In this document: positions 16,657 through 36,093 of the stretch, one piece after another
Numbering within the stretch: position 1 is the first letter of the stretch
Layout: every line of letters begins with the position of its first letter
Program-made: the position numbers and the translations under genes
From: Anabaena sp. CCY 9613
GTDB lineage: Bacteria > Cyanobacteriota > Cyanobacteriia > Cyanobacteriales > Nostocaceae
Reading direction: 5' to 3'
Length of the DNA stretch: 40,000 nt
NCBI RefSeq assembly: GCF_963920895.1
Contig: NZ_CAWUDE010000012.1
Span: 1-40,000, forward strand
The notes under the pieces: model-generated
Told to the model about the DNA's origin: nothing
Databases searched by the model: none
What the model saw: the letters and a program-made list of their open reading frames with translations, nothing else

Positions 16657-16665
16657 TAGACAGAG

Positions 16666-19822: not shown

Positions 19823-20046
19823 AATCAATAATATCCTGAAATGCTGATTTTTAGGATGTTACTAGTGGGGTTTTTGCTGCTTTTATTGGACATTTTCATA
19901 ATGCTCATTGCCAATTTATTCTACGGATGAATTACAGCAGGATCATGAATTTCTTATATGAAGTGATAGGATTACCAAAAAGTGCGATAATTCCACAGGA
20001 AGCCGCAAAAGCGCTTCTTTAAGGTAATCTTAGACACCAATTATTG

Positions 20047-21740: not shown

Positions 21741-23969
21741 TTAACGTTTTTGCAACGCCACATCTTTTTTGCTTAACTTTTCGTGAGGGAAGTATTCTTT
21801 TGCATGATAAAAATAACTGCTAGATTCGTTTTTCTCAATGATTCCATTGACAACTAAACCTAAAACGTTGTGATTGGCTCTGTCTAGCATCTCTTGGGCG
21901 GCAACAGCACTATTATAATCAATTACCTCTGGTCTAGATACTAACAACATCCCATCGGACATGCGATTTAAAGTTAAAGCGTCAGCCGCAAGCAGCAAAG
22001 GAGGAGCATCGATAATTACACAATCGTACTGTGATGCAAACTGTTGAATGAGTGATGCCATGTGCTTGGATTCTAGTAAAGCCAGTGGGTTAGGTGGTCT
22101 AACTCCAGCAGTTAAGACATCCAGGTGATCCATAACTGTATTCACAGCTGTGCGGAATTCAGCCTGTCCTACAAGTACCTCACTCAAACCTGCGGCATTT
22201 GTTAGTTCCCAAAGATGATGCTGAGAAGGCATTCGCATATCTGCATCAATTAATAAAACCTTTCGTCCTAGTTGAGCGATCGCAGCAGCCAAATTAGCGG
22301 AAACTGTAGACTTACCTTCTTTGGGAACTGCACTGGCGACTACAATTGTTTTCACATCCTTATCTGAACTGAGGAATTTCAGATTGGCTTGAATCATCCG
22401 GTACATTTCGCTAGTTAAAGAGTATGGCATATCTCTAACAGCAATCTCAGGGGTAATTGATTCTGGCTCACGATGACGGGAGTTAGCCTTACTCGGCAAC
22501 AAAGGAAGCATCCCTAACGGTGTATAGTTAAATACCTCTCTGACTTCCTTCGTTGTTTTGAGGGATTTATCTCTCAGTTCTAGGAAGAGAACGGCCGTAG
22601 TGGATAAAAATATCCCTGACATCAATCCCAAAGCCAAAACAATCAGTTTTTTCCCTGATGCTGGCTCTGTGGGAACTAAAGCCTGAGCAATAATCCGAGC
22701 ATTGGGTGTAGTTCTATTTTCTGCTACCTCTAATTGTTGAACTTTTTGCAACAAATTTTGATACGTAGTTTCTGCAACTGTAACTTTCCGTTCTAAATCC
22801 CGCTGAGTTTGTACTAATTGGGGTATGTTTCTCAAACGCTGCTCGTAGGTAGAGCGTGAATTGTACAAAGAAGCAACTCTCTGGCTCAGTCCAGAGCGCT
22901 GCACTTCTGATTGCAGCAAATTTTGGATCAAGTTTTGTCTGAGTTCTCCAATCTGTAATAGTCTGGGCGGAACATTGGCTTGATTACCAACAGTCTGGGC
23001 AATTTGCTGTTGTAAGAGGTTTTGTAAACTAGCTCTTCTGGCTACTAGTCCGACTACTACCGGGTTTTCATCTTGGAAACGACTACGCTCATTCGCCAAC
23101 TGTAGTTCCGTTTCTTGAAGTTGTGTCAGCACTCCCTGCACAGCCGGTGACTGACTCAGCGTACTCACAACGATCGCTTCCTGGGAATTTAGGGCAACTT
23201 TCTGCCGTAGTTCATTGGTTTGAGCATTTACCTCAGCTAATTGCGCCTGAACAGTATTAATCTCGTTATTAAGATTGCTAATAAGCCCAACAGATGTCCT
23301 TGTTTCTTCCGGTAAGTCTGCAATGTTGTACTTCTGTCTAAATATGCGTAACTCTTCTTCTGCCTTATTCAGAGCAGCTCGACTTTGAGGCAGCTGCTGA
23401 GACATAAAGTCACGAGTTGCTTCTGCCTCAGAACGATTGATGAGAATATCGTTTTGGAGATAGAGATCCATTATTGTGTTGATTACTGCTGCTGTTTCGT
23501 CAGGTTGACGACTGCTGTAGTTAATTTGCAACACATCTGTGCCACCAACAATTTTTAGATCTAGGGATCTCTCTAGCTCTTTTGCTTCTAGTGGTTCACC
23601 TTTGTCATTCTTGAGTTGTAATTTGTCTATTACCTGCTGCAAAAAAGAAGGAGAAGAAATTACTTGCATTTGAGTACTGATGGGATTTTGAGTAGAGATC
23701 AAAGATCTCAAATCACCTGCTTCTTGTCCTTCTGCTTGACTAGGCAACAAATTATTACCTACTGTTTTAAAAGAAGGCATCCGGAAGAAGAGTTTTCCTT
23801 CTGCCTCATACGAGGGCTTCATCAATGTTGTGGCTACAACACTTAGTCCAAATGTACCTGCCAAAATGAGTAAGACTAGTATCCAGCGCCGTTTCACTGT
23901 TAATAAGTAATGGCTCAAGTCTAAGTCAATAGACTCTTTAGATTCCACAAATTTTTCTGAATTTGACAT
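21741..23969 (-). CDS. wzc: Polysaccharide co-polymerase fused to a BY-type tyrosine autokinase (Wzc/GumC-like)
   Basis: It has an N-terminal TM helix, a long Q/L-rich coiled-coil periplasmic domain and a second TM. The C-terminal kinase has Walker A PKEGKST, Walker A' LLIDADMR and Walker B DCVIIDAPP, plus a short Tyr cluster SSYFYHAKEY. The track start is TTG 24002, and the ATG at 23969 (MSNSEKF) is preferred. Confidence 0.9.
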   Translation of the reverse strand: MSNSEKFVESKESIDLDLSHYLLTVKRRWILVLLILAGTFGLSVVATTLMKPSYEAEGKLFFRMPSFKTVGNNLLPSQAEGQEAGDLRSLISTQNPISTQMQVISSPSFLQQVIDKLQLKNDKGEPLEAKELERSLDLKIVGGTDVLQINYSSRQPDETAAVINTIMDLYLQNDILINRSEAEATRDFMSQQLPQSRAALNKAEEELRIFRQKYNIADLPEETRTSVGLISNLNNEINTVQAQLAEVNAQTNELRQKVALNSQEAIVVSTLSQSPAVQGVLTQLQETELQLANERSRFQDENPVVVGLVARRASLQNLLQQQIAQTVGNQANVPPRLLQIGELRQNLIQNLLQSEVQRSGLSQRVASLYNSRSTYEQRLRNIPQLVQTQRDLERKVTVAETTYQNLLQKVQQLEVAENRTTPNARIIAQALVPTEPASGKKLIVLALGLMSGIFLSTTAVLFLELRDKSLKTTKEVREVFNYTPLGMLPLLPSKANSRHREPESITPEIAVRDMPYSLTSEMYRMIQANLKFLSSDKDVKTIVVASAVPKEGKSTVSANLAAAIAQLGRKVLLIDADMRMPSQHHLWELTNAAGLSEVLVGQAEFRTAVNTVMDHLDVLTAGVRPPNPLALLESKHMASLIQQFASQYDCVIIDAPPLLLAADALTLNRMSDGMLLVSRPEVIDYNSAVAAQEMLDRANHNVLGLVVNGIIEKNESSSYFYHAKEYFPHEKLSKKDVALQKR

Positions 23970-24474
23970 AATTTTTCCTTTACAAGTAAGGGTTGGCAAC
24001 AAAAAAATTAGATTTTATTTAGAAGAGAATTTCAAGTAATACTGCAACCATAAATGCACTGATGGGACTTAACAATAGTGTTGACTAACTAGGTTGCAAA
24101 ATTGAGAATTTTTCGATGTGGGTATTTGCTTGACTTGTTTTGTTAATTGCTGCTTGTTTGTATTGCTGTATCTCAAAAAATATAAACAACAGAGGAAGGA
24201 GGAAGTATGAATAGGATCTTATCAGTCTTTGGTAGTATGATCAAGAGCATTAATAGAATCACATTCATTTCTAAATTTGCATCTGATGAGAGAATATTAT
24301 TGCAACTCGCTGCATGATAAATAATCCTTATTCTCAATATATGTCAATCATTTATTAATAATAAATTAATTTAGCATAAGTGCCTGATATCATCGTAAAA
24401 TACCTCCCCAGATATATTGCCTTCTTATCAATCAAATTCAAAGATTAACTTTCTTAACAAAGCAGAATATTCCC

Positions 24475-25245
24475 TTAGCGCTTTACTAATATTGCTTGAG
24501 TAATTCGTTGTTTGAACACACGATAAAAGAATAGTGGATTGCCTACAATATAACGTTTCCAAAGACGATTAGGCTCAACAATTAAGCGGGTTAACCACTC
24601 AAAACCATTATCAGTTAGCCAACGCGGCCCACGATATACAGATTCAGTATAGAAATCTAGACATGCTCCTAGAGGTAAAAACACACGCGTGTCAATTTTA
24701 TGGAAGTTATCTTGAATCCAGCGTTCCTGTAATGGCATACCAAAGCCGACATATAAAACATCTGGCTTAAATTTATTAATTTTCTCAATTACAGCTTCTT
24801 CTTCTGCTCCAGATTTTTCAAAATAACCGTGATGTCCTTCTATGCGTAAATTAGGAGCTATCTCCAGCAACTTGCTAATTGCTTTATCTGTTACGCCTGG
24901 TTTACCAGCCAGCAAAAATAAAGAAACATTCTGTTGCTCACAAGCTAACGCTAAAGTTTCTATATAATCAGGACAAGTCATACGATGTGCGGGTTCCATT
25001 TGGTAGCCCAAAATTTTTGCTCCCAGTGACACACCAAATCCATCGCAAAATACTAAATCAGCATTGTTTATAAAATTGCGATACCAAGGTAACTCACATG
25101 CAAAGTTGATTCCTCGCACATTGACATTAGCGATAGTTCTTTTTTGCTCGATTTTCCCACTGGCTACGATGTAACTTATTAAGTCATTTACTGTTAATGT
25201 ATGAAATCTTGTATCTAATATTTTTATTTCAGAAAATCTTTCCAT
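24475..25245 (-). CDS. WecG/TagA/CpsF-family glycosyltransferase (GT26)
   Basis: 256 aa, ATG start. The pattern NVNVRGINFA...ADLVFCDGFGVSLGAKILG...LFLLGGKPGV-like...DVLYVGFGMPLQERW is typical of the GT26 family. Confidence 0.88.
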   Translation of the reverse strand: MERFSEIKILDTRFHTLTVNDLISYIVASGKIEQKRTIANVNVRGINFACELPWYRNFINNADLVFCDGFGVSLGAKILGYQMEPAHRMTCPDYIETLALACEQQNVSLFLLAGKPGVTDKAISKLLEIAPNLRIEGHHGYFEKSGAEEEAVIEKINKFKPDVLYVGFGMPLQERWIQDNFHKIDTRVFLPLGACLDFYTESVYRGPRWLTDNGFEWLTRLIVEPNRLWKRYIVGNPLFFYRVFKQRITQAILVKR

Positions 25246-25276
25246 TTGGTACCTCTACAGCTTAAAAATATGTAAA

Positions 25277-26335
25277 TTAAATCATCACTGAATGATAAAT
25301 TTTGAACAAATGAATTAAATATTTATCTACATCAAAAGGTTGGATACTTTCTCTGGCGTTCTCACCTATTTCCTGCCTTAGCTCTTGATTTACAATCAAA
25401 CTCTGCATCGCTATTGATAATTCTTTAATATTCCCTGGTTTCACTAGTAACCCATTTTTATCAGGAATTACTAGCTCTGGAATACCTCCAACTGGTGTAG
25501 TAATCACAGGTAATCCCCAACTCATAGCTTCAAGTAGTGCCATTGGTAACCCTTCATTGTATGAAGGTAAAACAAAAACATCCGCTTTTTTCAAAAGTGC
25601 ATCTCTTTCTTGTTCATTTACCCAATCTAAAATAGTAATTTGGTTGCTTAAATTCAGATTTTTGACTAAATCTCTAGCTCTTTTACCATCTCCATCTCCC
25701 GCCATAGTCAACTCTGAATTTTGTCTTTGTTCATGAGGAATCGCCGCGAAAGCTTCAATTAAATCAAATGCTCCTTTGCGTTCACCAATTCGGCCTAAAA
25801 ACAAAAAATTGACTTTTTGAAAATTTGTTCTTGGCGGTACTTCTACCGGGAGTTTAACTGGGTTAGGTAATACAACTACCTGCTTTGGGTTTAAGCCTAG
25901 ATTATCGACGTAGAATTTTTTCCAACTATCTGATAAAACAATAAAACGTGTAGATTTACAAAATGCCCATCTTAATACTGCTTGGAATATTCTGGGTATC
26001 TTTGAGTAAAATACATGAAAATCAGCACTATGGGTGTGAAGAATGACTGGTTTTTGCAGTAACCAAGCAATTAAAGTAGTGATTGACTGGCGCCAAGCAC
26101 TACCTCGTTCTGAGACATGGATATGAACAATGTCAGCTTCTTGTTTTAATAGTTGCCAAAATAATAAGACTAAAGCTTGAAAAAATACTAATACTTTGAT
26201 GAGTGTAGATCCCTTGGGTAAAGTAGATATATGATGAATTTGCACCTCAGCAGGAGCTTGTTTAATTATTAGCTTTTCAACTGAAACTATTCCTCCTTGA
26301 TTTTTTAGGCTTTCTCCTAGCATTAAAATTCGCAT
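25277..26335 (-). CDS. Glycosyltransferase family 4 (GT-B, retaining)
   Basis: 352 aa with the C-terminal EX7E region PSYNEGLPMALLEAMSWGLPVITTPVGGIPELV. Confidence 0.88.
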   Translation of the reverse strand: MRILMLGESLKNQGGIVSVEKLIIKQAPAEVQIHHISTLPKGSTLIKVLVFFQALVLLFWQLLKQEADIVHIHVSERGSAWRQSITTLIAWLLQKPVILHTHSADFHVFYSKIPRIFQAVLRWAFCKSTRFIVLSDSWKKFYVDNLGLNPKQVVVLPNPVKLPVEVPPRTNFQKVNFLFLGRIGERKGAFDLIEAFAAIPHEQRQNSELTMAGDGDGKRARDLVKNLNLSNQITILDWVNEQERDALLKKADVFVLPSYNEGLPMALLEAMSWGLPVITTPVGGIPELVIPDKNGLLVKPGNIKELSIAMQSLIVNQELRQEIGENARESIQPFDVDKYLIHLFKIYHSVMI

Positions 26336-26392
26336 TCCATAAATCCTTAATTTATTATATTTATTGTTTCGATATCCCTCTTTTTGTCTATT

Positions 26393-27637
26393 TTAAGCTA
26401 TTAATTTTTCTTGATTTTTAGGAATTATGGGCAATGATAAAACCAAGGCAATGTAAAGTACCCAAACAATAGTGTTTGAGTCCAATAATGCGGATTCAGT
26501 CAAATTGAATGTGGCTATATAAGTAAGATGGATGGCCGGCAAAATATCTGCTGCTGTTTTACTACTACGTACCCAAGTAAATGCGTGGCGGCAACTACGC
26601 CAGAATCCTATAAAGAATAAAACTAATCCTAACAGGCCTAAATCCAGCCACAGTGCCAAAAACCCGTTGTGAGGATGAGTCGGTGTCCATCCGGCTGCTC
26701 GCCAAACATATGCCGATTCTCCATTAAAACCTTGCCAAAATCCACCGTAACCATAACCAAACCAAGGTTGTTGCCAAATCATTTCCATCACAAATGGCCA
26801 TAAATCTGCCCGACCAGTAAGTGTCGCATCTCTGCCAATTGAAGCAAATAAGACATCGGCATTATCACTCAACCAAAAAGAAAAAGCCTGACTAATGGTT
26901 ATCAACATCATTTGCGTTGGTATCATCACTATGTATGGCCAACGAAAAGTCCGAAAAACAAAAAATGCAAATACAAGGACGAAGAGATTGACAACAGATG
27001 AAGTTGAATCTGCAAGCACTAAAAGTAGGATTGATAAGCTCAACCCACCCCACATGAGCCAACTATGCTTTTTACTTTGATAAGCTAAAAGGAGAAAAAC
27101 GATCCCACTATTGACCATTTTTGCTCCCAGTCCATTTTTATGTATAAAGACTCCGCGCCACCTTCCTTGATGAATACCGCCCATGATCCCGTATGAGGGT
27201 AAAGCTATAGCAAAGATGAAACTCAATATTACAGCAATGCCAAATGTCCAACCCAACAACTGTAATTGCTGTTTTAAAGTATAACGAGAGGCTAAATAAA
27301 CTCCAAATAAACTGGAACCAATAAGTGTAAAACTGTCTTTAATTGTTGTACCAGGCTCAAAAGACCAAATAACTGAAACAGCCGCAAGAATGATTAAAGG
27401 AAAAAGCCAGCGGTCTTTACTAAAGACATAAAGAGTTTTTTTCCAACGCAAAACTAATAATACGAAGGTAACTACATAAATTAATAAATTAATTATTCTA
27501 ATTAATGAACTATCAAACTCAACAACTTCATTTTCTTGCATCCCTCCTGAGAGGATAAGAGTTAATATTGCCCCTGAATAAATCAGTAAGACAGTAACTG
27601 TAAATGCCTGTTCAGCAAAAAGTAAGAGCTTTTTCAT
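26393..27637 (-). CDS. wzy: O-antigen polymerase/ligase-family membrane protein (Wzy-type)
   Basis: About 10-12 TM segments and a Wzy_C-like loop (WTPTHPHNGFLALWLDLGLLGLVLF). The track start TTG 27649 overlaps the upstream stop (TTGA). The alternative ATG at 27637 is used here. Confidence 0.8.
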   Translation of the reverse strand: MKKLLLFAEQAFTVTVLLIYSGAILTLILSGGMQENEVVEFDSSLIRIINLLIYVVTFVLLVLRWKKTLYVFSKDRWLFPLIILAAVSVIWSFEPGTTIKDSFTLIGSSLFGVYLASRYTLKQQLQLLGWTFGIAVILSFIFAIALPSYGIMGGIHQGRWRGVFIHKNGLGAKMVNSGIVFLLLAYQSKKHSWLMWGGLSLSILLLVLADSTSSVVNLFVLVFAFFVFRTFRWPYIVMIPTQMMLITISQAFSFWLSDNADVLFASIGRDATLTGRADLWPFVMEMIWQQPWFGYGYGGFWQGFNGESAYVWRAAGWTPTHPHNGFLALWLDLGLLGLVLFFIGFWRSCRHAFTWVRSSKTAADILPAIHLTYIATFNLTESALLDSNTIVWVLYIALVLSLPIIPKNQEKLIA

Positions 27638-27645
27638 AAACTGAT

Positions 27646-28755
27646 TCAAGATTTATTTTTTATCTTTATTGCCTGGTGATAAACTTGGACTGTTTGCGCC
27701 GCAATATTTGTCCAATTTAAATCTTGCTGACAGCGTGCTAATGCCGCAGTTTGCATCTGCTGTTGTAAGTTGCGATCGCCTAATAACCGGATGATGGCAT
27801 CAGCTAAGGCTGTAACATCTTTGGGAGGAACTAGTAAACCATCTTTTTCATGGGCAACTATTTCTTGCAAACCCCCAATATCAGAAGCAATTATTGGTGT
27901 TCCCATGCCATAAGATAAAGTTGCTACGCCACTTTGTGAAGCTTCAATGTAGGGTAAAACGGAAACGGCACTACGTTGGAATAGCCCTGAAACCTTTTCT
28001 AAGGGTATGAAGTCATTTATCAGTTCGATGTGGCTGGTATCGTAACCATCGGGAAAATATTGCTGGATATTTTCTCCCCGTCCAGCAATAATCAATTTGA
28101 CTTCCGGAATTTTGGCAGCAACCAATGGTAGTGCTTCTAACAAGTAGTTTAATCCTTTATATGGCCAGATTCTGCCGAAGAATAATAATGTATAAGGGTC
28201 TCTTGGTAAACTGTGTTGCCCTGATCGACGTTGGTATAAACTGCCGAGTTCCCCATGTGGTAACACGTTAACTCGCTGTTGTGGTACCCGAAAATCTTGA
28301 ATCAGTGCTTGTTTTAAAGCTTCAGCATGAACGATAATTTGCTGAGAGCGATAAAATGCAATACGCCTAGTATATTCTGCACCGAATACAACTTGGCGAT
28401 CGCCTGGATGACGATATACATCATGAATCGTTGTTACCAATGGCGGCATTTGATTTAGCAGCAACGTCAAGTCATACCACGGATCGTTAGTTTCTTGTAC
28501 ATGTAACACATCTGGTTGCACATCTTTGATAATCCGCATCATGGCGCGCATAGATGACAAGTTGTGCGGATCACGCATCCGTGGCTTTTTAAAGCTGATG
28601 ACGCGAATACTGGGGTCGAGAACATCGCCACAGGTAGCGGCAACATTTTCTGGTTGAATTACTGTTAAATCAACGTACTTAACTAGACTATTGGCTAACT
28701 CAATAGTATAGTCTTCAAAGCAAAAATGTAGTAAAGCAACTTTTGTCACTCGCAT
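27646..28755 (-). CDS. Glycosyltransferase family 4
   Basis: 369 aa, ATG start. It has the GT-B C-terminal motif LPYIEASQSGVATLSYGMGTPIIASDIGGLQEIV. Confidence 0.88.
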   Translation of the reverse strand: MRVTKVALLHFCFEDYTIELANSLVKYVDLTVIQPENVAATCGDVLDPSIRVISFKKPRMRDPHNLSSMRAMMRIIKDVQPDVLHVQETNDPWYDLTLLLNQMPPLVTTIHDVYRHPGDRQVVFGAEYTRRIAFYRSQQIIVHAEALKQALIQDFRVPQQRVNVLPHGELGSLYQRRSGQHSLPRDPYTLLFFGRIWPYKGLNYLLEALPLVAAKIPEVKLIIAGRGENIQQYFPDGYDTSHIELINDFIPLEKVSGLFQRSAVSVLPYIEASQSGVATLSYGMGTPIIASDIGGLQEIVAHEKDGLLVPPKDVTALADAIIRLLGDRNLQQQMQTAALARCQQDLNWTNIAAQTVQVYHQAIKIKNKS

Positions 28756-28934
28756 TTCTCCATGTTTAGCACCTTGTCACAATTATTAAGGTCAATTTCT
28801 TCATTACCTAGTATGCTAAATATCAGTTAACAACTAACAACCCTTACTAGATAACCAAAGTTGTTTAAACTGCCAATCTTTGTTACTTAACTCATATTTC
28901 AGCATAACTAGTAATGAAGAAGGAGTAATTTTTA

Positions 28935-30140
28935 TTACTTTGATTCCTTAACTTTTTTTATTAAAAAAGGCTTGGATACTTTTTGTAGATTGGATTTTAA
29001 ATTAGCACGAGCAATTATATATTTGGTAGCTTGTACTAAATCGTCACGACCTATAGATGCAAACAAAGGTATCAGACTCTGATATTTTCCTTTTTCCAAC
29101 AGAGTTTTTGGATGTGCAAACTTTATCAGCCTTTCTTTCGTAAGCTCCTTGACAGGAAAAATATTCGTTTTGTCTAATACATCTAACGCCGCAAGGTGTG
29201 CCATTGTTATTGTACATTTATGACAAATACCACAGTTTAAATAACCAGTGGGTAAAACTAATTCATCACAAACTCTAAGGTTTTGGAACGCGACATCCCA
29301 ACCCACTACTAATTTAGTTTTATCTAACCTGGATAAATGCACGCTATCATACTTAACACGCAAATCATAACTGCTGTAATTGGGATCTGTTAAAGGATGT
29401 GAACCCCAAGGCTCGATATGCTTTATTTCACTAGTAGAGGCTACATACACTAAATTCAATCGGTTGACAAAAGCATGTGCAATAGCTGATAAGGCAGAGC
29501 CACCAAAATAGTATTTCCAGAAATTGTAATTGCTATCTTCTAAGTCTTTTACATGTCTATATATATTGGTATAAACTGGAATTAAGTTTATTCCGGCATC
29601 TTTAGTTACTGGTAATAGTGAAATAAAAGCTTTCTCAAATGCTTCTAAAGTAGTATTTGCTATCCCGTAAACTATAAAACCATCTTTAATTGAAGCTGGA
29701 TGATCTTGTCCAAAGTTAAGACGGTTATTTCGCAAAGTGGCAAAGGTATCTACGCCACCTGAAAAAAACATCCCCGCCCTTTGAGGTCTAACTGTGTTTG
29801 ATGTCTTAAAATTAGTTTTTGCCTCTATTTGCACAATATCACGATCTAATTTGTACCAAGATCTCATCCAATGCATTGACGTAATTAAACCATCACGCAA
29901 TTCTGGACAAATTTCTGCTTCTTCTGTATCTATAAAAATTCTTGTTTCCCCATAGTGAAAAGCTAGCATGGTACAAGCTATGAGAAAAGTATTGGGGTTG
30001 CAGGATAAGTCATTGGCAAATTCTTTAGTAGTAGCAACGTAGATTTCTTGAGAGGGTCGATCCCGATCTTCCCAAACTACAGTCGCTGCGACTCTGGTCA
30101 AATTTTCTTTTTCATACTTTGTAAAGTTACTAATCTTCAT
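28935..30140 (-). CDS. Uncharacterised protein with a PP-loop-like (SGGxDT) nucleotide-binding signature and a C-terminal Cys cluster
   Basis: 401 aa. The ATG overlaps the stop of the flippase gene (ATGA at 30137-30140). Residues 122-136 read AGMFFSGGVDTFATL (nt 29745-29762 encode SGGVDT), and NCGICHKC lies near residue 305. I recognise no named family, so the function is inferred only. Confidence 0.6.
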   Translation of the reverse strand: MKISNFTKYEKENLTRVAATVVWEDRDRPSQEIYVATTKEFANDLSCNPNTFLIACTMLAFHYGETRIFIDTEEAEICPELRDGLITSMHWMRSWYKLDRDIVQIEAKTNFKTSNTVRPQRAGMFFSGGVDTFATLRNNRLNFGQDHPASIKDGFIVYGIANTTLEAFEKAFISLLPVTKDAGINLIPVYTNIYRHVKDLEDSNYNFWKYYFGGSALSAIAHAFVNRLNLVYVASTSEIKHIEPWGSHPLTDPNYSSYDLRVKYDSVHLSRLDKTKLVVGWDVAFQNLRVCDELVLPTGYLNCGICHKCTITMAHLAALDVLDKTNIFPVKELTKERLIKFAHPKTLLEKGKYQSLIPLFASIGRDDLVQATKYIIARANLKSNLQKVSKPFLIKKVKESK

Positions 30141-31585
30141 GTTTCTCCTTCACTTTTTTTAAAAAATTTTGCCCACAGAACATTGACACCGCCTAATGTA
30201 TTGACCGCTAAAAAACTAGCTATCAAAGCATAGGCACAAATTGACACAATCAAAACTACCACAAAATCAAGTTGATATCTTTGTAGTAACAAGAATACTA
30301 ATGCCATGCTCACGCCAATTACCAATGGACGATACATTATTCTCCATATATTCAATGAAAATAACCGACTGTACACACCATACATAAGTATGCTAAAAGC
30401 CGTTAAACTCATTGACAAATACATAAAAGCTGCACCCATTAACTGAAATTGTGAAATTAATACTACACCTGCTATATTTCCCACGGCATTGGTAATAATC
30501 ACTTCTTTCAGGTTATATCTCTCTAATCCATTAGATAAAAGCAGATAACCTAATGTGCGGACAAATGGACTAGCCAGTACGGCTAATGCAGTCAATTTAA
30601 GCACTAAATCTACTTGATTAAAATCAGAATTTTTATAAATAAATGTTATTAAATCATTACCAATAAAGTGTATACCAATCACAAATGGTAAGGCTATACA
30701 CATCAGCATTGTAATAATATTTTCTGTGACTTGCGCCTGTTTCTTTTTGCCACTATTTACGGCTTTTGTCATCCCTGGAAAAGCAGCAAGACTGACACTC
30801 TGAATAATCATCGTAATGGGTTGCATTAATTGGAGAACAGCACCAAAAAGACCAACCATGACTTCACTCCCCAAGAGTGAGATAATGAGAATACTTGTTT
30901 TACTAGTGATTATTCCTACTGCATCAATAGCAAAAAATGTCCGAGCAGATTTTAATAATTGCCGGATAAAACCTTGCTTAATCTCCCATCTCGGTCTAAT
31001 CATGCTGGTGAGCATGACCCATTGAATAATAAAAACTATTACTTCGGAAACAACAAATATTCCCGCTATATAATTGACCCCATAATTTAGTTCTTGCATA
31101 CACCATATCATTACTACTAAACGTAGAATGTAAACTGGCACCGTTGAGACAGCTATCAAAGTCATTTTTTCTTGAGCTTGAAAAATTGCCTCCGTTATAT
31201 TAGAAAGTGAAAAAGGAATAATTGCTAGACCCATGATGTAGCAAACCATTGAGGTCTCAGGATTGTAGGGCAATAAAAACACCAATATAATCATTGCTCC
31301 ATAACCAAGGACACTCAAAAGTATTTGCAAGAAAGTGCCATTGACTAGATACACGGGTATTTCTTCGGGATTGCGAGAAAGTTCTCGTGTAAATAAGGTT
31401 TTTAATCCCTGTGACGCAATACTCGCAAACACAAAATAGTAGCTGAATGCTAGTAAATATTGACCTAATTCATAAGCACCTAAATTACGGGCTATGGCTG
31501 CTGTTAACACAAAAGTAGCGATACTTTGTATTAAACGAGTAACTAATAATGATAGAGAATTTGTAATTAAGGTGCGTTTTTCCAT
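30137..31585 (-). CDS. wzx: Wzx-type oligosaccharide flippase (MOP/polysaccharide-biosynthesis family)
   Basis: 482 aa, ATG start, with about 12-14 hydrophobic helices. The N-terminus LLVTRLIQSIATFVLTAAIARNLGAYELGQY is typical of PST/Wzx proteins. Confidence 0.85.
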   Translation of the reverse strand: MEKRTLITNSLSLLVTRLIQSIATFVLTAAIARNLGAYELGQYLLAFSYYFVFASIASQGLKTLFTRELSRNPEEIPVYLVNGTFLQILLSVLGYGAMIILVFLLPYNPETSMVCYIMGLAIIPFSLSNITEAIFQAQEKMTLIAVSTVPVYILRLVVMIWCMQELNYGVNYIAGIFVVSEVIVFIIQWVMLTSMIRPRWEIKQGFIRQLLKSARTFFAIDAVGIITSKTSILIISLLGSEVMVGLFGAVLQLMQPITMIIQSVSLAAFPGMTKAVNSGKKKQAQVTENIITMLMCIALPFVIGIHFIGNDLITFIYKNSDFNQVDLVLKLTALAVLASPFVRTLGYLLLSNGLERYNLKEVIITNAVGNIAGVVLISQFQLMGAAFMYLSMSLTAFSILMYGVYSRLFSLNIWRIMYRPLVIGVSMALVFLLLQRYQLDFVVVLIVSICAYALIASFLAVNTLGGVNVLWAKFFKKSEGET

Positions 31586-31678
31586 ATTTTTTATAGTAAA
31601 TATTTTTATAATTTTTAGCAGATAATATATATTATCTGCTATGCTTGGGTGTTTTATTTATTTTTTATAGTTTTCACT

Positions 31679-32707
31679 TTAAATCTTTAAAATCTTTTGG
31701 TCTTTACTACGATAAAACATGTCGTATGCTGCTGTATTGCCAAAAATGTAACGCTGTATGCGACGATTTGTAATACCAGGAAATTGGATAGAGAAATGCC
31801 AGAAAAAGTAAGGATTACGTACCATTTCTATCACACATCTAAACCATTGTCGTTGCTTTAATGAGTCTACAACACGGTAATAAGCTAAATTTTTTTTAAA
31901 GACAGTAAGATTTTTAGATAAAGCATAAGCTACTTCAGGTTTTTGCCTCAAACAGTCTTCTTGATCGATAAAAGCTACAGTTGCTTGACAATCTTGTTCG
32001 AGACGCTTGACTTTAGATGAATAAACTAGAGAACCGGGACGAGAACGATAATAATAATAAGGTTTTGGTAGAAGAAAAAATCTCGCTCCTCTTATCAAAC
32101 ATTTCAGGGCTAACCAAAAATCTTCGCTCACCTTCATTAAGGGATCATATTTAATGTCATGTTTCAACATAAAATCTCGCCGGAATAAAGGCTTTGATAA
32201 GCCAAGGTGTAGCCCTTGTTGTCCATACACATCTGTTTCCACAAAATATTGCGGATCAATTTGCTTGATTTCTGCAACAACTTCCCCGCTTTCGTTAATT
32301 AGTGTACTCCAGGGAGCATCTTCACCGTCTCTAATCAAAAATAAATCATCAGCAATTATATCTGCATTTTGTGCGTGTGGTAACTGTAGAAGTTTTTCTA
32401 GTCTTTCCGGAGCATACCAGTCATCGGAGTCTAAAACAGCAATCCATCTGCCTTTGGCTTCCTTCAAGGCCCGATTACGTGTAGCAGCCACTCCCAGATT
32501 TTGAGGATTTACAAAAACTTTTAGTCGTTCATCTGTAAAGCTTCTAGCTACTTCGGGTGTCCCATCAGTGGAGGCATCATCTACTACAATTACCTCAATA
32601 TTTTTCAAAGTTTGCTCCAAGGCCGACTCAATTGTTTGGGAAATGTAGCCTGCGGTATTATAGGCAGGAATAATGACCGATACTTCTGGATTCATGTTGA
32701 TAGTCAT
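31679..32707 (-). CDS. Glycosyltransferase family 2
   Basis: 342 aa with VSVIIPAYNTAGYISQTIESALEQTLKNIEVIVVDDASTDGT and the DxD motif LDSDD. An alternative ATG lies at 32695. Confidence 0.9.
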   Translation of the reverse strand: MTINMNPEVSVIIPAYNTAGYISQTIESALEQTLKNIEVIVVDDASTDGTPEVARSFTDERLKVFVNPQNLGVAATRNRALKEAKGRWIAVLDSDDWYAPERLEKLLQLPHAQNADIIADDLFLIRDGEDAPWSTLINESGEVVAEIKQIDPQYFVETDVYGQQGLHLGLSKPLFRRDFMLKHDIKYDPLMKVSEDFWLALKCLIRGARFFLLPKPYYYYRSRPGSLVYSSKVKRLEQDCQATVAFIDQEDCLRQKPEVAYALSKNLTVFKKNLAYYRVVDSLKQRQWFRCVIEMVRNPYFFWHFSIQFPGITNRRIQRYIFGNTAAYDMFYRSKDQKILKI

Positions 32708-32895
32708 CGATGAGAAATTCTCAGGTGTATTTACTAGTTGATTGGGTTATGCCAAATATGAGGATAGTCAGTTTTTACAGGCTGTTATCAATTATCTTTT
32801 GAGAAGTATTGTTAGCAAGCCTTCTACTTGAAGCCCATATTTGGTGTTTTTTGTCAAGGTGTAATTCCTAAGAATCTGGAAATACTAGGACTGTT

Positions 32896-34572
32896 TTAAG
32901 CCTCAACGGTGGCGTTAGTCACTGGGAGTCTTACTAGTGGGCTGCCTTCAAAATAGTTGGGAATGGGCGCCCCCATTAATTCTAAAATTGTGGCTGACAC
33001 ATCTACTGCTTCGGCGTTAGGCAAATCAGAACCTGGTTGGATATCAGGCCCCTTTGCCAAAACAAATCCTCTGTTCCAGTGACCACCTGCGCGGAAGTGA
33101 GTTAGGGGGCCAATGCGTCCAAAGTCGGGACTATCTACGACATCAGTCATGCTCTCATGCCATAAAACAGCCAAGTCAAAATCTGGCAGATGAGGATCGT
33201 TATCTAGAGGATTTTCTCTTGTCCGCACAACTTCTTTAACTATGGGTTCTCCAGTTCTGCCATCTTTGAGACGACATAGCACTTCGGCAATTTCATCACA
33301 GAGGGAATGATATTCAGCAGCGGTGACTACACCATGAGGATCTCTGCCTTGAAGATTGATGCGAATATGTCCATTGGTGAAAGAAGGTATACCAAAAGCT
33401 TTCATTTTTGTCCACAGAGGTTGATACCAACGTGCAGGCATCCAACCCATAGGCACCGATTGTTCCATCAATGGGTAAGGAGAAGCTAAACCGTTTTGGT
33501 TAGCATGTAAGAACTTACTAGGTGTCCAGGGTTTGAGGAAGCGTTTAATGGGATTTGGCTCATAATTTTTTACCCAAACTTCTCCAGGCCAAGAGTTCCG
33601 CAGGGGTTTACTGACTGTTGGTGGTAGAGGATCTCCTACTTTACCAGGTGCGATCGCAACTTGTTCGGGAAAGTTAAATCGATACAAAACTTCGGGCAAA
33701 AAGACCATACTCAGCATATCGCTGTAGTTAGGCCCCATACCATGAAGTGAAAAACATACTACATAAGCATCTTCGGGAGCTTCAGCTAATATTGTGCCGA
33801 TGGCCCTATCGATATTTTCATAGGTTTCAAATAATATATCAGGAGTGCCAGTTTTACTCAGGTCGGAATGTAGGGGATGATCTGGTTGGCTATAGTTATA
33901 TATGTCATGACCAGCAGTGTGTGGCTCACCAAATACTGCTAAGAATAAATCCCAAGGTTCTTTTTTTAATAAGTCACAGCAGATTTTAGTACGACTGTCA
34001 ATACTTTCTTTAAGTGCTTGCTGCAACCATTTGACGTAATCTTTATCCCACCAAATACCATCATCATTGAAGAGAATGGGATTTTTGCCATATTGATTAA
34101 TAATTTCCGAATAGACTTCAGGGGGATGAGAATGACTAGGTGTATAAGGAAAATGTCCTCCCCATCCTAAAATTTGGGTGCCGTTGACTTCATCAGAAAG
34201 CCTAGTTACAGGTAAATCAAAAATAGCGACTTTGTATTTGTCTCCTAAGGCATAAAATGGGGAATATTCTTGATAATCATAGCCACTTAGAGCTAGATCA
34301 CATTCCATATCATACTTTTTGTCATCATACCTAAAGGAGTCCCAATAGCCTGTTTTATGAGGCTTACAACCAGTAGAAAATGCAGACCACAATGGCTCGG
34401 TTACAGCAAATTCGGTTGTTTTACCGCAGTATTCGACTGTATTCTTAATCCGACCATAGGTTCCTTGCTGACGCAGTTTAGCAATATTTTTGAGGTGCCC
34501 TTGTGACATCCATTTTTCTAGTAATACTGGATCTGCTGCATCTAAACCAATGGCAATTACAGGTTTTTTCAT
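32896..34572 (-). CDS. Alkaline-phosphatase-superfamily enzyme (type I phosphodiesterase/nucleotide pyrophosphatase-like), no signal peptide
   Basis: 558 aa. The N-terminus KPVIAIGLDAADPVLLEKWMSQGHLKNIAKL, followed by VTEPLWSAFSTGCKPHKTG, fits the metal-ligand Asp plus Thr-nucleophile layout of NPP/AP-family proteins. Later HG/GGH motifs (FSLHGMG, RAGGHW) fit the second metal site. Confidence 0.75.
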   Translation of the reverse strand: MKKPVIAIGLDAADPVLLEKWMSQGHLKNIAKLRQQGTYGRIKNTVEYCGKTTEFAVTEPLWSAFSTGCKPHKTGYWDSFRYDDKKYDMECDLALSGYDYQEYSPFYALGDKYKVAIFDLPVTRLSDEVNGTQILGWGGHFPYTPSHSHPPEVYSEIINQYGKNPILFNDDGIWWDKDYVKWLQQALKESIDSRTKICCDLLKKEPWDLFLAVFGEPHTAGHDIYNYSQPDHPLHSDLSKTGTPDILFETYENIDRAIGTILAEAPEDAYVVCFSLHGMGPNYSDMLSMVFLPEVLYRFNFPEQVAIAPGKVGDPLPPTVSKPLRNSWPGEVWVKNYEPNPIKRFLKPWTPSKFLHANQNGLASPYPLMEQSVPMGWMPARWYQPLWTKMKAFGIPSFTNGHIRINLQGRDPHGVVTAAEYHSLCDEIAEVLCRLKDGRTGEPIVKEVVRTRENPLDNDPHLPDFDLAVLWHESMTDVVDSPDFGRIGPLTHFRAGGHWNRGFVLAKGPDIQPGSDLPNAEAVDVSATILELMGAPIPNYFEGSPLVRLPVTNATVEA

Positions 34573-34638
34573 CTTCCTTCAAATTTCTTGTACTTGTAAA
34601 TAACTGACGTAGTTAAGATGGTTTTTTGTGCCTGATAC

Positions 34639-36093
34639 TTAGTAAGCACCTTCTTTTTTTAAAACAACCTTGACTGTTTTCATCAAAATTTCAAAATCTA
34701 ACTGCAACGACCAATTCTCGATGTAGCTTAGATCAAGATTGATTACTTGTTCAAAATCGATAATATTGGAGCGTCCGGAAACTTGCCACAGACCTGTAAC
34801 ACCAGGTAAAACTTCATGTCGGATAAAGTGGTGTTCAGCAAACTTGTTGACATCTCTGGTTGGCAAGGGACGAGGGCCAACTAAACTCATTTCTCCCAAC
34901 ATCACGTTAAATAGTTGAGGTAGTTCATCTAAGCTATAACGACGGAGAAACTTACCTACACGAGTAATCCGAGGATCATCTTTAATTTTGAAGATGATAC
35001 CGTCTTTGGTTTCGTTTAAAGCTTCTAGTTCTTTTTGGAGTTTGTCCGCATCTGGTCTCATGGTACGGAATTTCCATACTTTAAACTCTTGACCACGCAG
35101 ACCTATGCGAGTTTGTTTGTAAAAGACTGGGCCTGGAGAATCTAGTTTGATAGCTATAGCAATGGCGGCATAAACAGGAAAGGTGAACATGAGAAATAAG
35201 CTAGTGAAGCAAAAGTCAAAACACCGCTTAAGCCAAAAATCCTTACCTGTAAGTACTGGGCAATCAAAACTCAGACAAGTCATTCCTCCGATGTTTTGCA
35301 ATTCGACTTGTCTGTGAATTGGCTTTAGCCCCATTGGGAGAAGATGTACAGTGATGCCAGATGCTTGAAATAACCAGCAAACAAACATACGATTCTTAAT
35401 GGCATCCCACGTAATAAAAACTTCTGTAACCCCCAATCTCTTCAGTTTGTCTAAAGTCTCTTGACGGCGATACCTGTCTAAACATTGAGAATCTTCGAGT
35501 CCACGGATAACGTAACGCTTTTCCTTTTGCACAAAGTTAAGGAATTGCTCGCTATTTTCAGCATCACCAATAATAAAAACAGAATTACACCCGAAGATTT
35601 TTTGCTTACGAAGATATTCAAGATTAAAATTGACAAATAATCTCCCAGCACAAACCAAAGTTGTACTCATCAATCCAGATAAGATAAATGTAGAGCGGGG
35701 AAGATCTAAAATAGGTTGATATAAAAAACAAACAAGTAGTATTAACCCGTGGGCAAAAGTCAATGTTTTGATAATCCCTAGATAATCACATCGCTTTTTA
35801 CCTGATTGATAAATACCTTGGAGAGCTAGTGCGGCTATTTGAATCACAACTAGCAAGGGTATATAAGTGATTTGTGTATTCCAAAGAGGATCTACAGATG
35901 CAGCATGATGTAGAGCTAATACCCAAGCAAGAGTCAGAAGACTAGCGTCTGCTGCAATCAGTGTGATTAATCGTAGCCACCATGACCCCTTTCTGAGTCT
36001 AGAAAATGCAGGCGCACGTAAATCAAATACAGGCGTACGTAAGTCGAGAGCAACTTCGCTTAATTGATTAGTTGTCAGAGTTTTGTTTGTCAT
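34639..36093 (-). CDS. Priming polyprenyl-phosphate glycosyl-1-phosphate transferase (WbaP/EpsL-like bacterial sugar transferase)
   Basis: It has N-terminal TM helices, a central Rossmann-like region, and a C-terminal catalytic domain with KVWKFRTM, DPRITRVGKFLRRYSLDELPQLFNV and SLVGPRP. The track start is TTG 36114, and the ATG at 36093 is preferred. Confidence 0.9.
   Translation of the reverse strand: MTNKTLTTNQLSEVALDLRTPVFDLRAPAFSRLRKGSWWLRLITLIAADASLLTLAWVLALHHAASVDPLWNTQITYIPLLVVIQIAALALQGIYQSGKKRCDYLGIIKTLTFAHGLILLVCFLYQPILDLPRSTFILSGLMSTTLVCAGRLFVNFNLEYLRKQKIFGCNSVFIIGDAENSEQFLNFVQKEKRYVIRGLEDSQCLDRYRRQETLDKLKRLGVTEVFITWDAIKNRMFVCWLFQASGITVHLLPMGLKPIHRQVELQNIGGMTCLSFDCPVLTGKDFWLKRCFDFCFTSLFLMFTFPVYAAIAIAIKLDSPGPVFYKQTRIGLRGQEFKVWKFRTMRPDADKLQKELEALNETKDGIIFKIKDDPRITRVGKFLRRYSLDELPQLFNVMLGEMSLVGPRPLPTRDVNKFAEHHFIRHEVLPGVTGLWQVSGRSNIIDFEQVINLDLSYIENWSLQLDFEILMKTVKVVLKKEGAY

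What the first reader, a model, noticed from the sequence alone, without database searches (positions are those of the whole stretch)
28935..30140. Orphan PP-loop-like enzyme translationally coupled to the Wzx flippase
Seen in the sequence: this 401-aa ORF has an ATG that overlaps the flippase stop codon (ATGA, 30137-30140). Residues 122-136 read AGMFFSGGVDTFATL, a beta-strand followed by SGGxD(S/T). That is the PP-loop ATP-pyrophosphatase signature of the adenine-nucleotide alpha-hydrolase superfamily (QueC, asparagine-synthetase-like enzymes, and N-acetyl-sugar amidotransferases of the WbpG/WbuX type). A cysteine cluster NCGICHKC lies near the C-terminus, and an extra ~120-aa N-terminal domain has no motif I recognise. 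Inference: this is an adenylating enzyme that modifies a carboxyl or acetamido group on the repeat unit, by amidation, amidino formation or amino-acid ligation. Unlike the WbuXYZ systems, no HisH/HisF-like ammonia-supplying partner is present in the cluster. I cannot place the protein in any named family, which makes it the best candidate here for an undescribed polysaccharide-tailoring activity.
Basis: partly seen in the sequence, partly recalled or inferred. Interest (0 to 1): 0.7.

Follow-up and report, generated by a model that had tools for sequence, protein, structure and literature searches.

The report
Unnamed QueC-like PP-loop enzyme beside Wzx
This gene encodes a well-conserved ATP-using enzyme, distantly related to the queuosine enzyme QueC, from a large family that no database names and nobody has studied; in this cyanobacterium and many other bacteria it sits directly after the gene that exports a surface polysaccharide, so it probably adds a chemical decoration, but which one is not known.

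Summary
The ORF at 28935-30140 (-) encodes 401 aa, its ATG overlaps the Wzx stop codon (ATGA), AGMFFSGGVDTFATL is at residues 122-136, and NCGICHKC is at 302-309.

The PP-loop reading holds. [ST]GGxD and four cysteines (C291, C303, C306, C309) are 99-100% conserved in 339 homologues. A confident AlphaFold model (pLDDT 90.9) matches only PP-loop enzymes, best a phage QueC and YcfA. A profile comparison lays residues 119-328 collinearly on full-length QueC, though with weak statistics.

It is not an orphan. About 7,760 50%-identity clusters match, across many phyla, and none has a Pfam, NCBIfam or PDB sequence match. It is not a WbpG/WbuX-type amidotransferase, a true QueC or an AsnB-like enzyme.

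Gene context supports glycan tailoring only in part. Of 81 distinct loci, 29 have a Wzx or Wzm/Wzt exporter gene just upstream. Four fusions join the protein to sulfo-, pyruvyl- or FemAB-like transferases. However, 11 loci follow a RimK-like ligase and 35 have other contexts.

The substrate is unknown. UDP-sugar dehydrogenase genes are rarely nearby. The most likely mechanism is adenylation of a carboxyl or carbonyl oxygen, then attack by ammonia or an amine without a glutaminase, as in QueC. I class it as a new family-level variant of a known enzyme kind.

The parts
28935..30140 (-). Complete ORF of 401 aa plus stop codon: a QueC-like PP-loop ATP pyrophosphatase from an unnamed family
   Evidence: family shown
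30137..30140 (-). ATGA overlap between the Wzx stop codon and this gene's start codon (translational coupling)
30145..30148 (-). GGAG Shine-Dalgarno-like element, four bases upstream of the ATG, inside the end of wzx
   Evidence: read directly
29787..30140 (-). N-terminal domain, residues 1-118. Strand/helix order is beta-beta-beta-alpha-beta-alpha-beta. W23, E24, E65, R67 and W95 are near-invariant and C78 is 91% conserved. No solved structure matches it significantly.
29151..29786 (-). Catalytic PP-loop (Rossmann-like) domain, residues 119-330, collinear with full-length QueC
29745..29762 (-). PP-loop motif S127-G-G-V-D-T132, the pyrophosphate-binding loop
29214..29270 (-). Four-cysteine site C291-x11-C303-x2-C306-x2-C309, spaced like the QueC zinc site. 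It aligns with the cysteines of the QueC C-terminal cluster (established as the Zn site) in hhalign.
28938..29150 (-). C-terminal helical region, residues 331-401. Together with the cysteine site it gives weak, sub-threshold hits to Pfam DUF6395 in homologues. It ends in a basic tail and has no transmembrane segment.
30137..31585 (-). Wzx-type flippase (Polysacc_synt / MurJ-like), immediately upstream and coupled to this gene
21741..36114 (-). Surrounding Wzx/Wzy-type polysaccharide cluster. Gene order is Bac_transf, AlkP-like 'Phosphodiest', GT2, Wzx, this gene, GT4, Wzy, GT4, WecG-family GT, Wzc-like kinase. The same synteny occurs in Calothrix, Anabaena and Nostoc.

Best explanation
The gene encodes a soluble cytoplasmic ATP pyrophosphatase of the PP-loop superfamily. 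It is the founding example in this window of a large, unnamed, QueC-like family. The protein has three parts. The first is a conserved N-terminal domain (residues 1-118) found in no named family. The second is a QueC-like catalytic core (119-330) carrying the SGGxD[ST] loop and a four-cysteine site that is probably a zinc site. The third is a helical tail. The proposed mechanism is inferred from the superfamily. ATP binds at the PP-loop. A carboxyl or amide-carbonyl oxygen of the substrate is adenylated and PPi is released. AMP is then displaced by a nitrogen nucleophile, either free ammonia as in QueC or an amine, giving an amide or amidine. In this locus the gene is made together with the Wzx flippase. 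I infer that it decorates the lipid-linked repeat unit, or a dedicated precursor, on the cytoplasmic side before export. A ManNAc(A)-type residue delivered by the cluster's WecG-family transferase is one candidate substrate. What is shown: the fold class, the motif conservation, the size of the family and the gene contexts. What is inferred: ATP use, the chemistry, the nucleophile and the substrate.
For: [ST]GGxD is 99-100% conserved, and so are C291, C303, C306 and C309, in 339 homologues. The AF2 model has pLDDT 90.9 and pTM 0.89. Every interpretable Foldseek hit is a PP-loop enzyme. In the PDB these are YcfA 9kq7 (probability 0.99, TM 0.50 over 175 columns), a TtuA-like sulfurtransferase, asparagine synthetase, GMP synthetase, NAD synthetase and the FAD synthase PAPS-reductase-like domain. 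In BFVD the best hit is a phage QueC (E 1e-4, probability 1.00, TM 0.57 over 292 columns). hhalign of the family against a QueC alignment gives E 1e-4 and probability 48-58% over the SRLDK...C...CGxCxKC region. With relaxed settings, residues 119-328 align collinearly with QueC residues 1-222, including the PP-loop. The Pfam QueC model gives weak hits in 9 of 53 members. Context: ATGA coupling to wzx. The order Wzx then this gene is conserved in 9 Nostocales-type loci, and Wzm/Wzt then this gene in 20 loci from Nitrospirota, Desulfobacterota, Planctomycetota, Chloroflexota and Bacteroidota. Natural fusions join it to a sulfotransferase, a FemAB-like GNAT and two polysaccharide pyruvyl transferases. 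No glutaminase partner is present in the window, which fits QueC-type use of free ammonia.
Against: No biochemical data exist for any member, and literature searches found nothing. Structural and profile similarity to known PP-loop enzymes is weak: no PDB hit reaches E<=1e-3 and hhalign probability stays below 60%. Of the 81 loci, 46 lack an exporter context, namely 11 next to RimK-like ATP-grasp ligases and 35 other, and 6 more lie at a contig edge. Identity between contexts remains about 44% with all key residues kept. That could mean the substrate is a common small molecule rather than a variable repeat unit. UDP-sugar dehydrogenase genes lie within 10 kb in only 2 of 81 loci, and none is in the window, so a uronic-acid carboxyl substrate has no neighbourhood support. 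The four cysteines could bind an Fe-S cluster instead of zinc.
Confidence: 0.45

Rival explanations
1. It works like the N-acetyl-sugar amidotransferases (WbpG, WbuX, PseA, LfnA). It would adenylate the carbonyl of a sugar acetamido group and add ammonia to give an acetamidino group on the repeat unit.
For: It is a PP-loop enzyme in a glycan cluster. Its PP-loop begins at residue 127; in LpNASAT the PP-loop is at 122-127 and is likewise preceded by about 120 residues, and both proteins have a tetracysteine site (PMC10607449). The cluster also has a WecG-family transferase, which may add an N-acetylated sugar.
Against: The NCBIfam library, which should include the NASAT model TIGR03573 (from memory), gives no match even at E<=10. 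The cysteine pattern is C-x11-C-x2-C-x2-C, whereas NASAT has CXXC-Xn-[GN]XCXXC. The NASAT structure 8WEX is not among the top 50 Foldseek hits. No HisH/HisF-like partner is present.
Confidence: 0.12
2. It acts on a soluble small molecule, such as an amino acid, peptide or cofactor-like acid, not on the glycan. The product would then be used by several different pathways, including this polysaccharide cluster.
For: Identity is about 44% with identical key residues across very different contexts: the exporter context, the RimK-like ligase, GNAT and transporter context, and stand-alone genes in Pleurocapsales. The closest relatives by fold, QueC and YcfA, act on small molecules.
Against: The gene is tightly coupled to wzx or placed just after wzt. 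It is fused to three kinds of glycan-decorating transferase. No biosynthetic genes for such a small molecule are recognisable in the window cluster.
Confidence: 0.2
3. It is a sulfur-related PP-loop enzyme. Either it is a thiolating enzyme like YcfA, TtuA or LarE, or it is an ATP-sulfurylase/PAPS-reductase-like nucleotidyl transferase that supplies sulfation.
For: The top PDB hits include YcfA, a TtuA-like sulfurtransferase and the PAPS-reductase-like domain of FAD synthase. One homologue is fused to a sulfotransferase and another has a sulfotransferase next door. An FGE-sulfatase gene lies in the RimK context. C78 is 91% conserved.
Against: C78 is replaced by Ser or Asp in 26 members and C47 is only 61% conserved, so there is no universal catalytic cysteine. 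The four-cysteine spacing matches the QueC zinc site, not the three-cysteine Fe-S site of TtuA. No PAPS_reduct or ATP-sulfurylase Pfam signal appears. The window contains no sulfotransferase, APS kinase, cysteine desulfurase or C-S lyase.
Confidence: 0.08
4. It is a true QueC paralogue in 7-deazaguanine (queuosine or archaeosine-type) metabolism, and its position in a polysaccharide cluster is accidental.
For: UniRef labels one homologue '7-cyano-7-deazaguanine synthase'. The best BFVD hit is a phage QueC. A tgt gene is in the same window at 5140-6267.
Against: The QueC Pfam model is never reached: the best score is 16.9 bits against a cut-off of 22, and only over the cysteine region. The protein is 401 aa with extra conserved domains, whereas E. 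coli QueC is 231 aa. No queD, queE or queF neighbours were recognised in 81 loci. The tgt gene is 23 kb away among housekeeping genes.
Confidence: 0.02
5. It is a non-catalytic accessory or regulatory subunit of the exporter that keeps only a nucleotide-binding fold.
For: It is positioned immediately after two unrelated exporter types, Wzx and Wzm/Wzt.
Against: The full catalytic PP-loop, the metal site and about 45 other positions are at least 90% conserved, which is typical of an active enzyme. Many homologues have no exporter nearby.
Confidence: 0.03

Closest known systems
QueC (7-cyano-7-deazaguanine synthase; Pfam PF06508)
   Same: Both have a PP-loop SGGxDS at the start of the catalytic core. 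The cores are collinear: residues 119-328 here align with QueC residues 1-222. An S/P-x-L-x-K motif is shared (K274 here, K165 in E. coli QueC). Both have a C-xn-C-x2-C-x2-C metal site. Neither has a glutaminase partner. A phage QueC is the best fold match in BFVD.
   Different: This protein is 401 aa and E. coli QueC is 231 aa. It has a conserved N-terminal domain of 118 aa and a helical tail of about 70 aa that QueC lacks. The QueC HMM scores below threshold. The genomic context has no que genes. Most QueC-invariant residues are not among this family's conserved positions.
YcfA of Erwinia amylovora (PDB 9kq6, 9kq7, 9kq9), the 6-thioguanine thioamide-forming AANH enzyme
   Same: It is the best solved-structure match (probability 0.99, TM 0.50, 175 columns). 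It adenylates a carbonyl oxygen with ATP before a nucleophile attacks (PMC12494993).
   Different: Identity is 10-12%. YcfA is about 220 aa and forms a double heptamer. Its nucleophile is L-cysteine, and it works with the C-S lyase YcfC. No such partner is present here.
N-acetyl sugar amidotransferases (WbpG, WbuX, PseA, LfnA; LpNASAT, PDB 8WEX)
   Same: These are PP-loop enzymes encoded in glycan clusters. The PP-loop starts about 120 residues from the N-terminus, and they have a zinc tetracysteine site.
   Different: There is no NCBIfam match. The cysteine motif has a different pattern. No WbuY/WbuZ-type ammonia supplier is present. 8WEX is not among the top 50 fold hits.
Pfam DUF6395 (PF19932)
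   Same: Eighteen of 53 family members give weak hits over the cysteine site plus the C-terminal helices (residues about 296-403).
   Different: All hits are below the gathering score (best 17.2 bits against 25). The window protein itself gives no hit. DUF6395 is itself uncharacterised, and no paper mentions it.

Membership tests
PP-loop ATP pyrophosphatase / adenine-nucleotide alpha-hydrolase superfamily | SGGxD[ST] loop between the first beta-strand and the following helix | tested here: met
   S127-GGVD-T132 follows strand 122-125 and begins helix 130-142. It is 99-100% conserved in 339 homologues.
PP-loop ATP pyrophosphatase / adenine-nucleotide alpha-hydrolase superfamily | Rossmann-like alpha/beta/alpha fold that superposes on solved PP-loop enzymes | tested here: met
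PP-loop ATP pyrophosphatase / adenine-nucleotide alpha-hydrolase superfamily | [quoted passage not shown] | not testable with these tools
   This needs an enzyme assay.
QueC (PF06508) | Family HMM matched above the curated threshold | tested here: not met
   No hit for the window protein at E<=10. The best score among relatives is 16.9 bits against a cut-off of 22, over the C-terminal 46 residues only.
QueC (PF06508) | C-terminal four-cysteine zinc site C-xn-C-x2-C-x2-C | tested here: met
   C291-x11-C303-x2-C306-x2-C309 is invariant and aligns to the QueC cysteines in hhalign. The identity of the metal was not tested.
QueC (PF06508) | Single-domain protein of about 220-230 aa, encoded with queD, queE or queF | tested here: not met
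   The protein is 401 aa with two extra conserved regions. No que neighbours were seen in 81 loci.
N-acetyl sugar amidotransferase (NASAT; WbpG/WbuX/PseA) | Match to the family model (I recall it as TIGR03573) | tested here: not met
   The NCBIfam scan returned no families at E<=10.
N-acetyl sugar amidotransferase (NASAT; WbpG/WbuX/PseA) | Tetracysteine motif CXXC-Xn-[GN]XCXXC | tested here: not met
   The motif as defined in PMC10607449 is absent. Here the pattern is C-x11-C-x2-C-x2-C.
N-acetyl sugar amidotransferase (NASAT; WbpG/WbuX/PseA) | HisH/HisF-like (WbuY/WbuZ) partner genes in the cluster | tested here: not met
   None was found among the window ORFs of at least 100 aa that were scanned.
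Asparagine synthetase B-like amidotransferases (for example WbpS) | Asn_synthase domain plus an N-terminal Cys2 glutaminase domain | tested here: not met
   The Asn_synthase model hit 1 of 53 members, at E 0.17. Residue 2 is Lys, and the N-terminal domain is 118 aa with no match to a solved structure.
DUF6395 (PF19932) | Family HMM matched above the gathering score | tested here: not met
   Eighteen of 53 members give sub-threshold hits (17.2 bits or less against 25). The window protein gives none.

The most novel reading that the evidence does not exclude
This family is a previously unrecognised class of glycan-tailoring enzyme that acts on the finished lipid-linked glycan just before export. 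That would explain why it follows either Wzx or Wzm/Wzt. It would use QueC chemistry with free ammonia to turn a carboxyl group into a carboxamide, or even, as QueC does, into a nitrile. In the ABC-transporter loci the carboxyl would be made in place by the co-conserved, quinone-linked complex of GMC oxidoreductase, Fe-S protein and NrfD-like membrane protein.
Probability: 0.12. Interest if true: 0.8.

Novelty: new variant of a known kind. Interest (0 to 1): 0.55.

Why it matters
The family is large (about 7,760 50%-identity clusters), strongly conserved and spread across many phyla, yet Pfam, NCBIfam and the PDB cannot see it by sequence. It recurs next to the export genes of surface polysaccharides. 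Naming it and finding its reaction would fill an annotation gap in thousands of glycan loci, including cyanobacterial exopolysaccharide clusters of biotechnological interest. It would add a new reaction or substrate class to the PP-loop superfamily. It would also give a handle on a conserved five-gene module, made of this enzyme, a GMC oxidoreductase, an Fe-S protein, an NrfD-like membrane protein and an acyltransferase, whose product is unknown.

Tried and rejected
- **Sequence searches of the single protein.** Pfam, NCBIfam and PDB gave nothing at E<=10. The family profile against the PDB gave only noise: 2gyq at E 1.2.
- **Locus search.** The search for related loci with the diverse alignment A2 failed because no stretch was conserved enough. 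It was repeated with A1.
- **PADLOC.** Only two weak JAB hits appeared for the window protein (E 0.007 and 0.03). They were not reproduced in three homologues and are treated as noise, so a QatC-like defence role is rejected.
- **Literature.** Searches for QueC-like plus polysaccharide, DUF6395, PP-loop plus O-antigen, the GMC/NrfD module, and AANH plus exopolysaccharide found no description of this family.
- **N-terminal domain modelled alone (pLDDT 81).** No PDB hit reached E<=1e-3. There were only weak matches (TM 0.3-0.4) to RNase H-like and RuvC/hexokinase-like folds and to a de novo design. I do not call the fold.
- **Membrane association through the C-terminal tail.** There is no transmembrane segment (maximum Kyte-Doolittle 19-residue mean 1.25) and the amphipathic moment is low, so this idea was dropped.
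- **Uronic-acid substrate, tested by co-occurrence.** Ugd-like genes lie within 10 kb in only 2 of 81 loci, so the idea is not supported.
- **Terminator or promoter between this gene and its neighbours.** No minus-strand terminator was predicted, and promoter-like sites occur at the chance rate.
Full report
**1. Observation**

The ORF at 28935..30140 on the minus strand encodes 401 aa. A public assembly, GCA_963920905.1, calls the identical ORF. Its ATG (30140-30138) overlaps the TGA (30139-30137) of the upstream 482-aa ORF. That ORF matches Polysacc_synt, Polysacc_synt_3 and MurJ, so it is a Wzx-type flippase. A GGAG lies four bases upstream of the ATG.

AGMFFSGGVDTFATL occupies residues 122-136 and NCGICHKC residues 302-309. 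No minus-strand terminator is predicted around the gene. The one correction is that the cysteine cluster lies three quarters of the way along the protein, not at the C-terminus.

**2. The locus**

Pfam annotation shows a Wzx/Wzy-dependent polysaccharide cluster on the minus strand, from about 36.1 kb down to 21.7 kb. In order it contains:
- a Bac_transf initiating transferase
- a 558-aa alkaline-phosphatase-superfamily 'Phosphodiest' protein
- a GT2
- Wzx
- the target gene
- a GT4
- Wzy
- a GT4
- a WecG/TagA-family glycosyltransferase
- a Wzc-like GNVR/ParA protein

The cluster core has 34-38% GC, against 44-47% in the housekeeping part of the window. The rest of the window is housekeeping: ferredoxin, Usp, Tgt, a Ser/Thr kinase, ClpB, transketolase, FabF, LpxD and two beta-helix proteins. 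There is no glutaminase, HisH/HisF, UDP-sugar dehydrogenase, pyruvyl transferase or sulfotransferase.

**3. Family**

The protein has no Pfam, NCBIfam or PDB sequence match, even at E<=10. A 33-sequence family profile also finds nothing real in the PDB. Even so, it is not an orphan:
- The word-indexed search returned 906 homologues. Where a source gives a name they are called 'hypothetical', apart from one UniRef label of QueC, and none of the 120 listed has a Pfam domain.
- The exhaustive profile search found 7,762 50%-identity representatives at E<=1e-3, of which 1,831 are at E<=1e-30.
- Members occur in Cyanobacteria, Nitrospirota, Desulfobacterota, Planctomycetota, Chloroflexota, Spirochaetota, Bacteroidota, Verrucomicrobiota and Gammaproteobacteria.

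In 339 non-identical members, about 45 positions are at least 90% conserved:
- In the PP-loop, S/T127 is in 338 of 339, G128 is 99%, G129 100% and D131 99%.
- In the cysteine site, C291, C303, C306 and C309 are each 99-100%.
- In the N-terminal domain, W23, E24, E65 (100%), R67 (99%) and W95 are conserved.
- In the core, N139 (100%), H147, N192, H222, H248, R271, K274, N302 and K308 are conserved.
- C47 is only 61% conserved. C78 is 91%, replaced by Ser or Asp in the rest.

**4. Fold**

AlphaFold2 with the family alignment gives a confident model, with pLDDT 90.9 and pTM 0.89. Foldseek against the PDB gives no hit at E<=1e-3, but every interpretable hit is a PP-loop or AANH enzyme:
- YcfA (9kq7): probability 0.99, target-normalised TM 0.50, 175 columns
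- a TtuA-like sulfurtransferase
- asparagine synthetase
- GMP synthetase
- NAD synthetase
- the PAPS-reductase-like domain of FAD synthase

Against BFVD the best hit is a phage QueC (E 1e-4, probability 1.00, TM 0.57, 292 columns). It is followed by ThiI, another QueC and an 'adenine alpha hydrolase'.

At the sequence-profile level, hhalign of the family against a nine-sequence QueC alignment gives E 1e-4 and probability 48-58%. The aligned region is the S-R-L-D-K...C...C-G-x-C-x-K-C block, matched to QueC's P-L-x-x-L-x-K...C...C-G-x-C-x-x-C. With relaxed settings, residues 119-328 align collinearly with QueC residues 1-222, including the PP-loop. Nine of 53 members give weak hits to the Pfam QueC model. 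Eighteen of 53 give weak hits to DUF6395 over the cysteine site plus the C-terminal helices. All of these are below threshold.

The N-terminal domain modelled alone (pLDDT 81) has a beta-beta-beta-alpha-beta-alpha-beta order and no significant PDB match. There is no transmembrane segment.

The conclusion is that the protein has a QueC-like PP-loop core flanked by a family-specific N-terminal domain and a helical tail.

**5. Context of homologues**

I collected 81 distinct loci, including the window. ORFs were called and clustered in scripts, and clusters were labelled from Pfam hits.

| Context | Loci | Details |
|---|---|---|
| Wzx within three genes upstream, same strand | 9 | Nostocales-type loci with the window's synteny: Bac_transf, Phosphodiest, (AKR), GT2, (methyltransferase), Wzx, target, GT4, (Pel9A-like), Wzy, GT4, WecG, (GH10), Wzc |
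| Wzm/Wzt ABC transporter within three genes upstream | 20 | From at least five phyla |
| RimK-like ATP-grasp ligase directly upstream | 11 | Desulfobacterales; with a GNAT protein, FGE-sulfatase, a TLC/HEAT/cNMP transporter and a solute-binding protein |
| Other contexts | 35 | Mainly Pleurocapsales, beside PHP, permease or two-component genes |
| At a contig edge | 6 | Not informative |

Eighteen loci in all have a GMC oxidoreductase shortly downstream of the target. It is usually followed by a DmsB-like 4Fe-4S protein, a DmsC/NrfD-like membrane protein and a hexapeptide acyltransferase. The GMC oxidoreductase and the Fe-S protein lack signal peptides.

Mean identity between contexts is 43-48%, against 51-70% within contexts. 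All motif residues are kept throughout.

Natural fusions link the protein to a sulfotransferase (P0135), a FemAB-like Acetyltransf_6 domain (P0148) and polysaccharide pyruvyl transferases (P0151, P0246). The fusion loci are glycan loci. L098 carries a DegT aminotransferase, a UDP-sugar dehydrogenase and an ABC transporter. L100 carries a GT2 and a sulfotransferase. Ugd-like genes lie within 10 kb of only 2 of the 81 loci.

**6. Mechanism**

*Shown:* the PP-loop fold class, an invariant pyrophosphate-binding loop, a four-cysteine site spaced like the QueC site, a conserved extra domain, translational coupling to wzx, and recurrent exporter-adjacent placement and fusions with glycan-decorating transferases.

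*Inferred* from established PP-loop chemistry (GMP, NAD and asparagine synthetases, QueC, TilS, NASAT; YcfA in PMC12494993): ATP adenylates a carboxyl or carbonyl oxygen with release of PPi, and a nucleophile displaces AMP.

The closest lineage is QueC, which uses free ammonia (established knowledge). No glutaminase is present here, and no cysteine outside the metal site is universally conserved. For those reasons I favour a nitrogen nucleophile (ammonia or an amine) giving an amide or amidine, with zinc as a structural metal.

Because the gene follows two unrelated exporter types and is fused to three kinds of decorating enzyme, I favour action on the lipid-linked glycan before export. The WecG-family transferase could supply a ManNAc(A)-type residue as acceptor, but this is a lead only.

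Overall confidence is 0.45. The specific idea of uronic-acid amidation is weaker than that, given.

**7. Rivals**

| Rival | Confidence |
|---|---|
| A common small-molecule substrate | 0.20 |
| NASAT-like acetamidino formation | 0.12 |
| Sulfur or sulfate chemistry | 0.08 |
| Non-catalytic accessory of the exporter | 0.03 |
| A true QueC | 0.02 |

- **Small-molecule substrate.** This is suggested by the high conservation between contexts and by the RimK and stand-alone contexts.
- **NASAT-like.** The defining features were tested and not met: no model hit, a different cysteine motif, and no WbuY/WbuZ-like partner.
- **Sulfur or sulfate chemistry.** The fold hits and the sulfotransferase fusion favour it. 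Against it, there is no universal catalytic cysteine, no PAPS_reduct signal and no sulfur-related partner in the window.
- **True QueC.** The HMM is not met, the architecture is wrong and there are no que neighbours.

**8. Comparison with known families, and novelty**

The protein belongs to the PP-loop ATP pyrophosphatase superfamily, since the motif and fold tests are met. It is not a member of QueC, NASAT, AsnB-like or DUF6395 as currently defined. No paper in the searchable corpus describes it. It is therefore a new family-level variant of a known enzyme kind: a QueC-like core with a new N-terminal domain and a new genomic association.

**9. Verdict**

'Orphan' is wrong in the sense of rarity but right in the sense of having no name. 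The polysaccharide-tailoring role is plausible but unproven, and it does not hold for the whole family.

Interest is 0.55. This is a large, conserved, unannotated enzyme family with a testable reaction. It does not overturn any established idea.

Noticed in passing
L004 8001-14607 (also L018, L025, L027, L038, L042, L048, L049, L063, L067, L072, L076 and others): A conserved module lies downstream of Wzm/Wzt in 18 loci from at least five phyla. It consists of this PP-loop protein, a GMC oxidoreductase without a signal peptide, a DmsB-like 4Fe-4S protein, a DmsC/NrfD-like membrane protein and a hexapeptide acyltransferase. CDP/dTDP-6-deoxyhexose genes (NTP_transferase, a dehydratase-like epimerase, dTDP_sugar_isom, DRL_cat) often lie upstream. 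It looks like a quinone-linked sugar oxidation system, and its product is unknown.
   Followed up: partly
L050, L054, L055, L060-L062, L065, L071, L077, L082, L085: In Desulfobacterales the homologue lies directly downstream of a RimK-like ATP-grasp ligase. Nearby are a 660-aa protein ending in a GNAT domain, an FGE-sulfatase, a TLC/HEAT/cNMP-binding transporter and a family-5 solute-binding protein. No polysaccharide genes are present. This suggests a peptide or small-molecule role for that clade.
   Followed up: partly
window 32896-34572 (-): A 558-aa alkaline-phosphatase-superfamily ('Phosphodiest') protein lies in the cluster. Its cluster has 13 members across the collected loci, including the Nostocales syntenic loci, plus L020 and L069. 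Its role in the cluster is unknown.
   Followed up: no
L024, L025, L027, L049, L066, L078, L086: Two or three paralogues of the family occur in tandem or nearby in one locus. Nostoc sp. UHCC 0302 carries two copies on one plasmid (P0004 and P0009), and one of them is isolated between transposases (L001). This could mean hetero-oligomers or sequential reactions.
   Followed up: no
window 24001-32000 compared with 8001-18000: The polysaccharide cluster core has 34-38% GC, against 44-47% in the adjacent housekeeping genes. The target gene itself is 35.4% GC. This is typical of variable, horizontally exchanged glycan loci.
   Followed up: partly
window 5140-6267 (-): A tgt gene (queuine tRNA-ribosyltransferase) lies in the same window as the QueC-like gene. 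It is 23 kb away among housekeeping genes, and I judge the co-location a coincidence.
   Followed up: partly
window 18341-19822 (+) and 20044-21450 (+): Two tandem right-handed beta-helix proteins (Pel9A-like in the syntenic loci) are encoded on the opposite strand just beyond the Wzc gene. The syntenic Calothrix and Anabaena clusters carry one such gene inside the cluster, plus a GH10 gene that this window lacks.
   Followed up: no
L010 8258-8896; also L002, L008 and L011: A 212-aa cysteine-rich protein with no Pfam match recurs in the Nostocales clusters. In L010 it lies directly upstream of the target gene. It is absent from the window.
   Followed up: no
L098 14842-15168: In the locus of the FemAB-like fusion protein there is a 108-aa GATase_6/7 fragment, resembling the N-terminus of an AsnB- or GlmS-type glutaminase. 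This is the only glutaminase-type gene seen close to a family member, apart from weak hits in L081 and L083.
   Followed up: no
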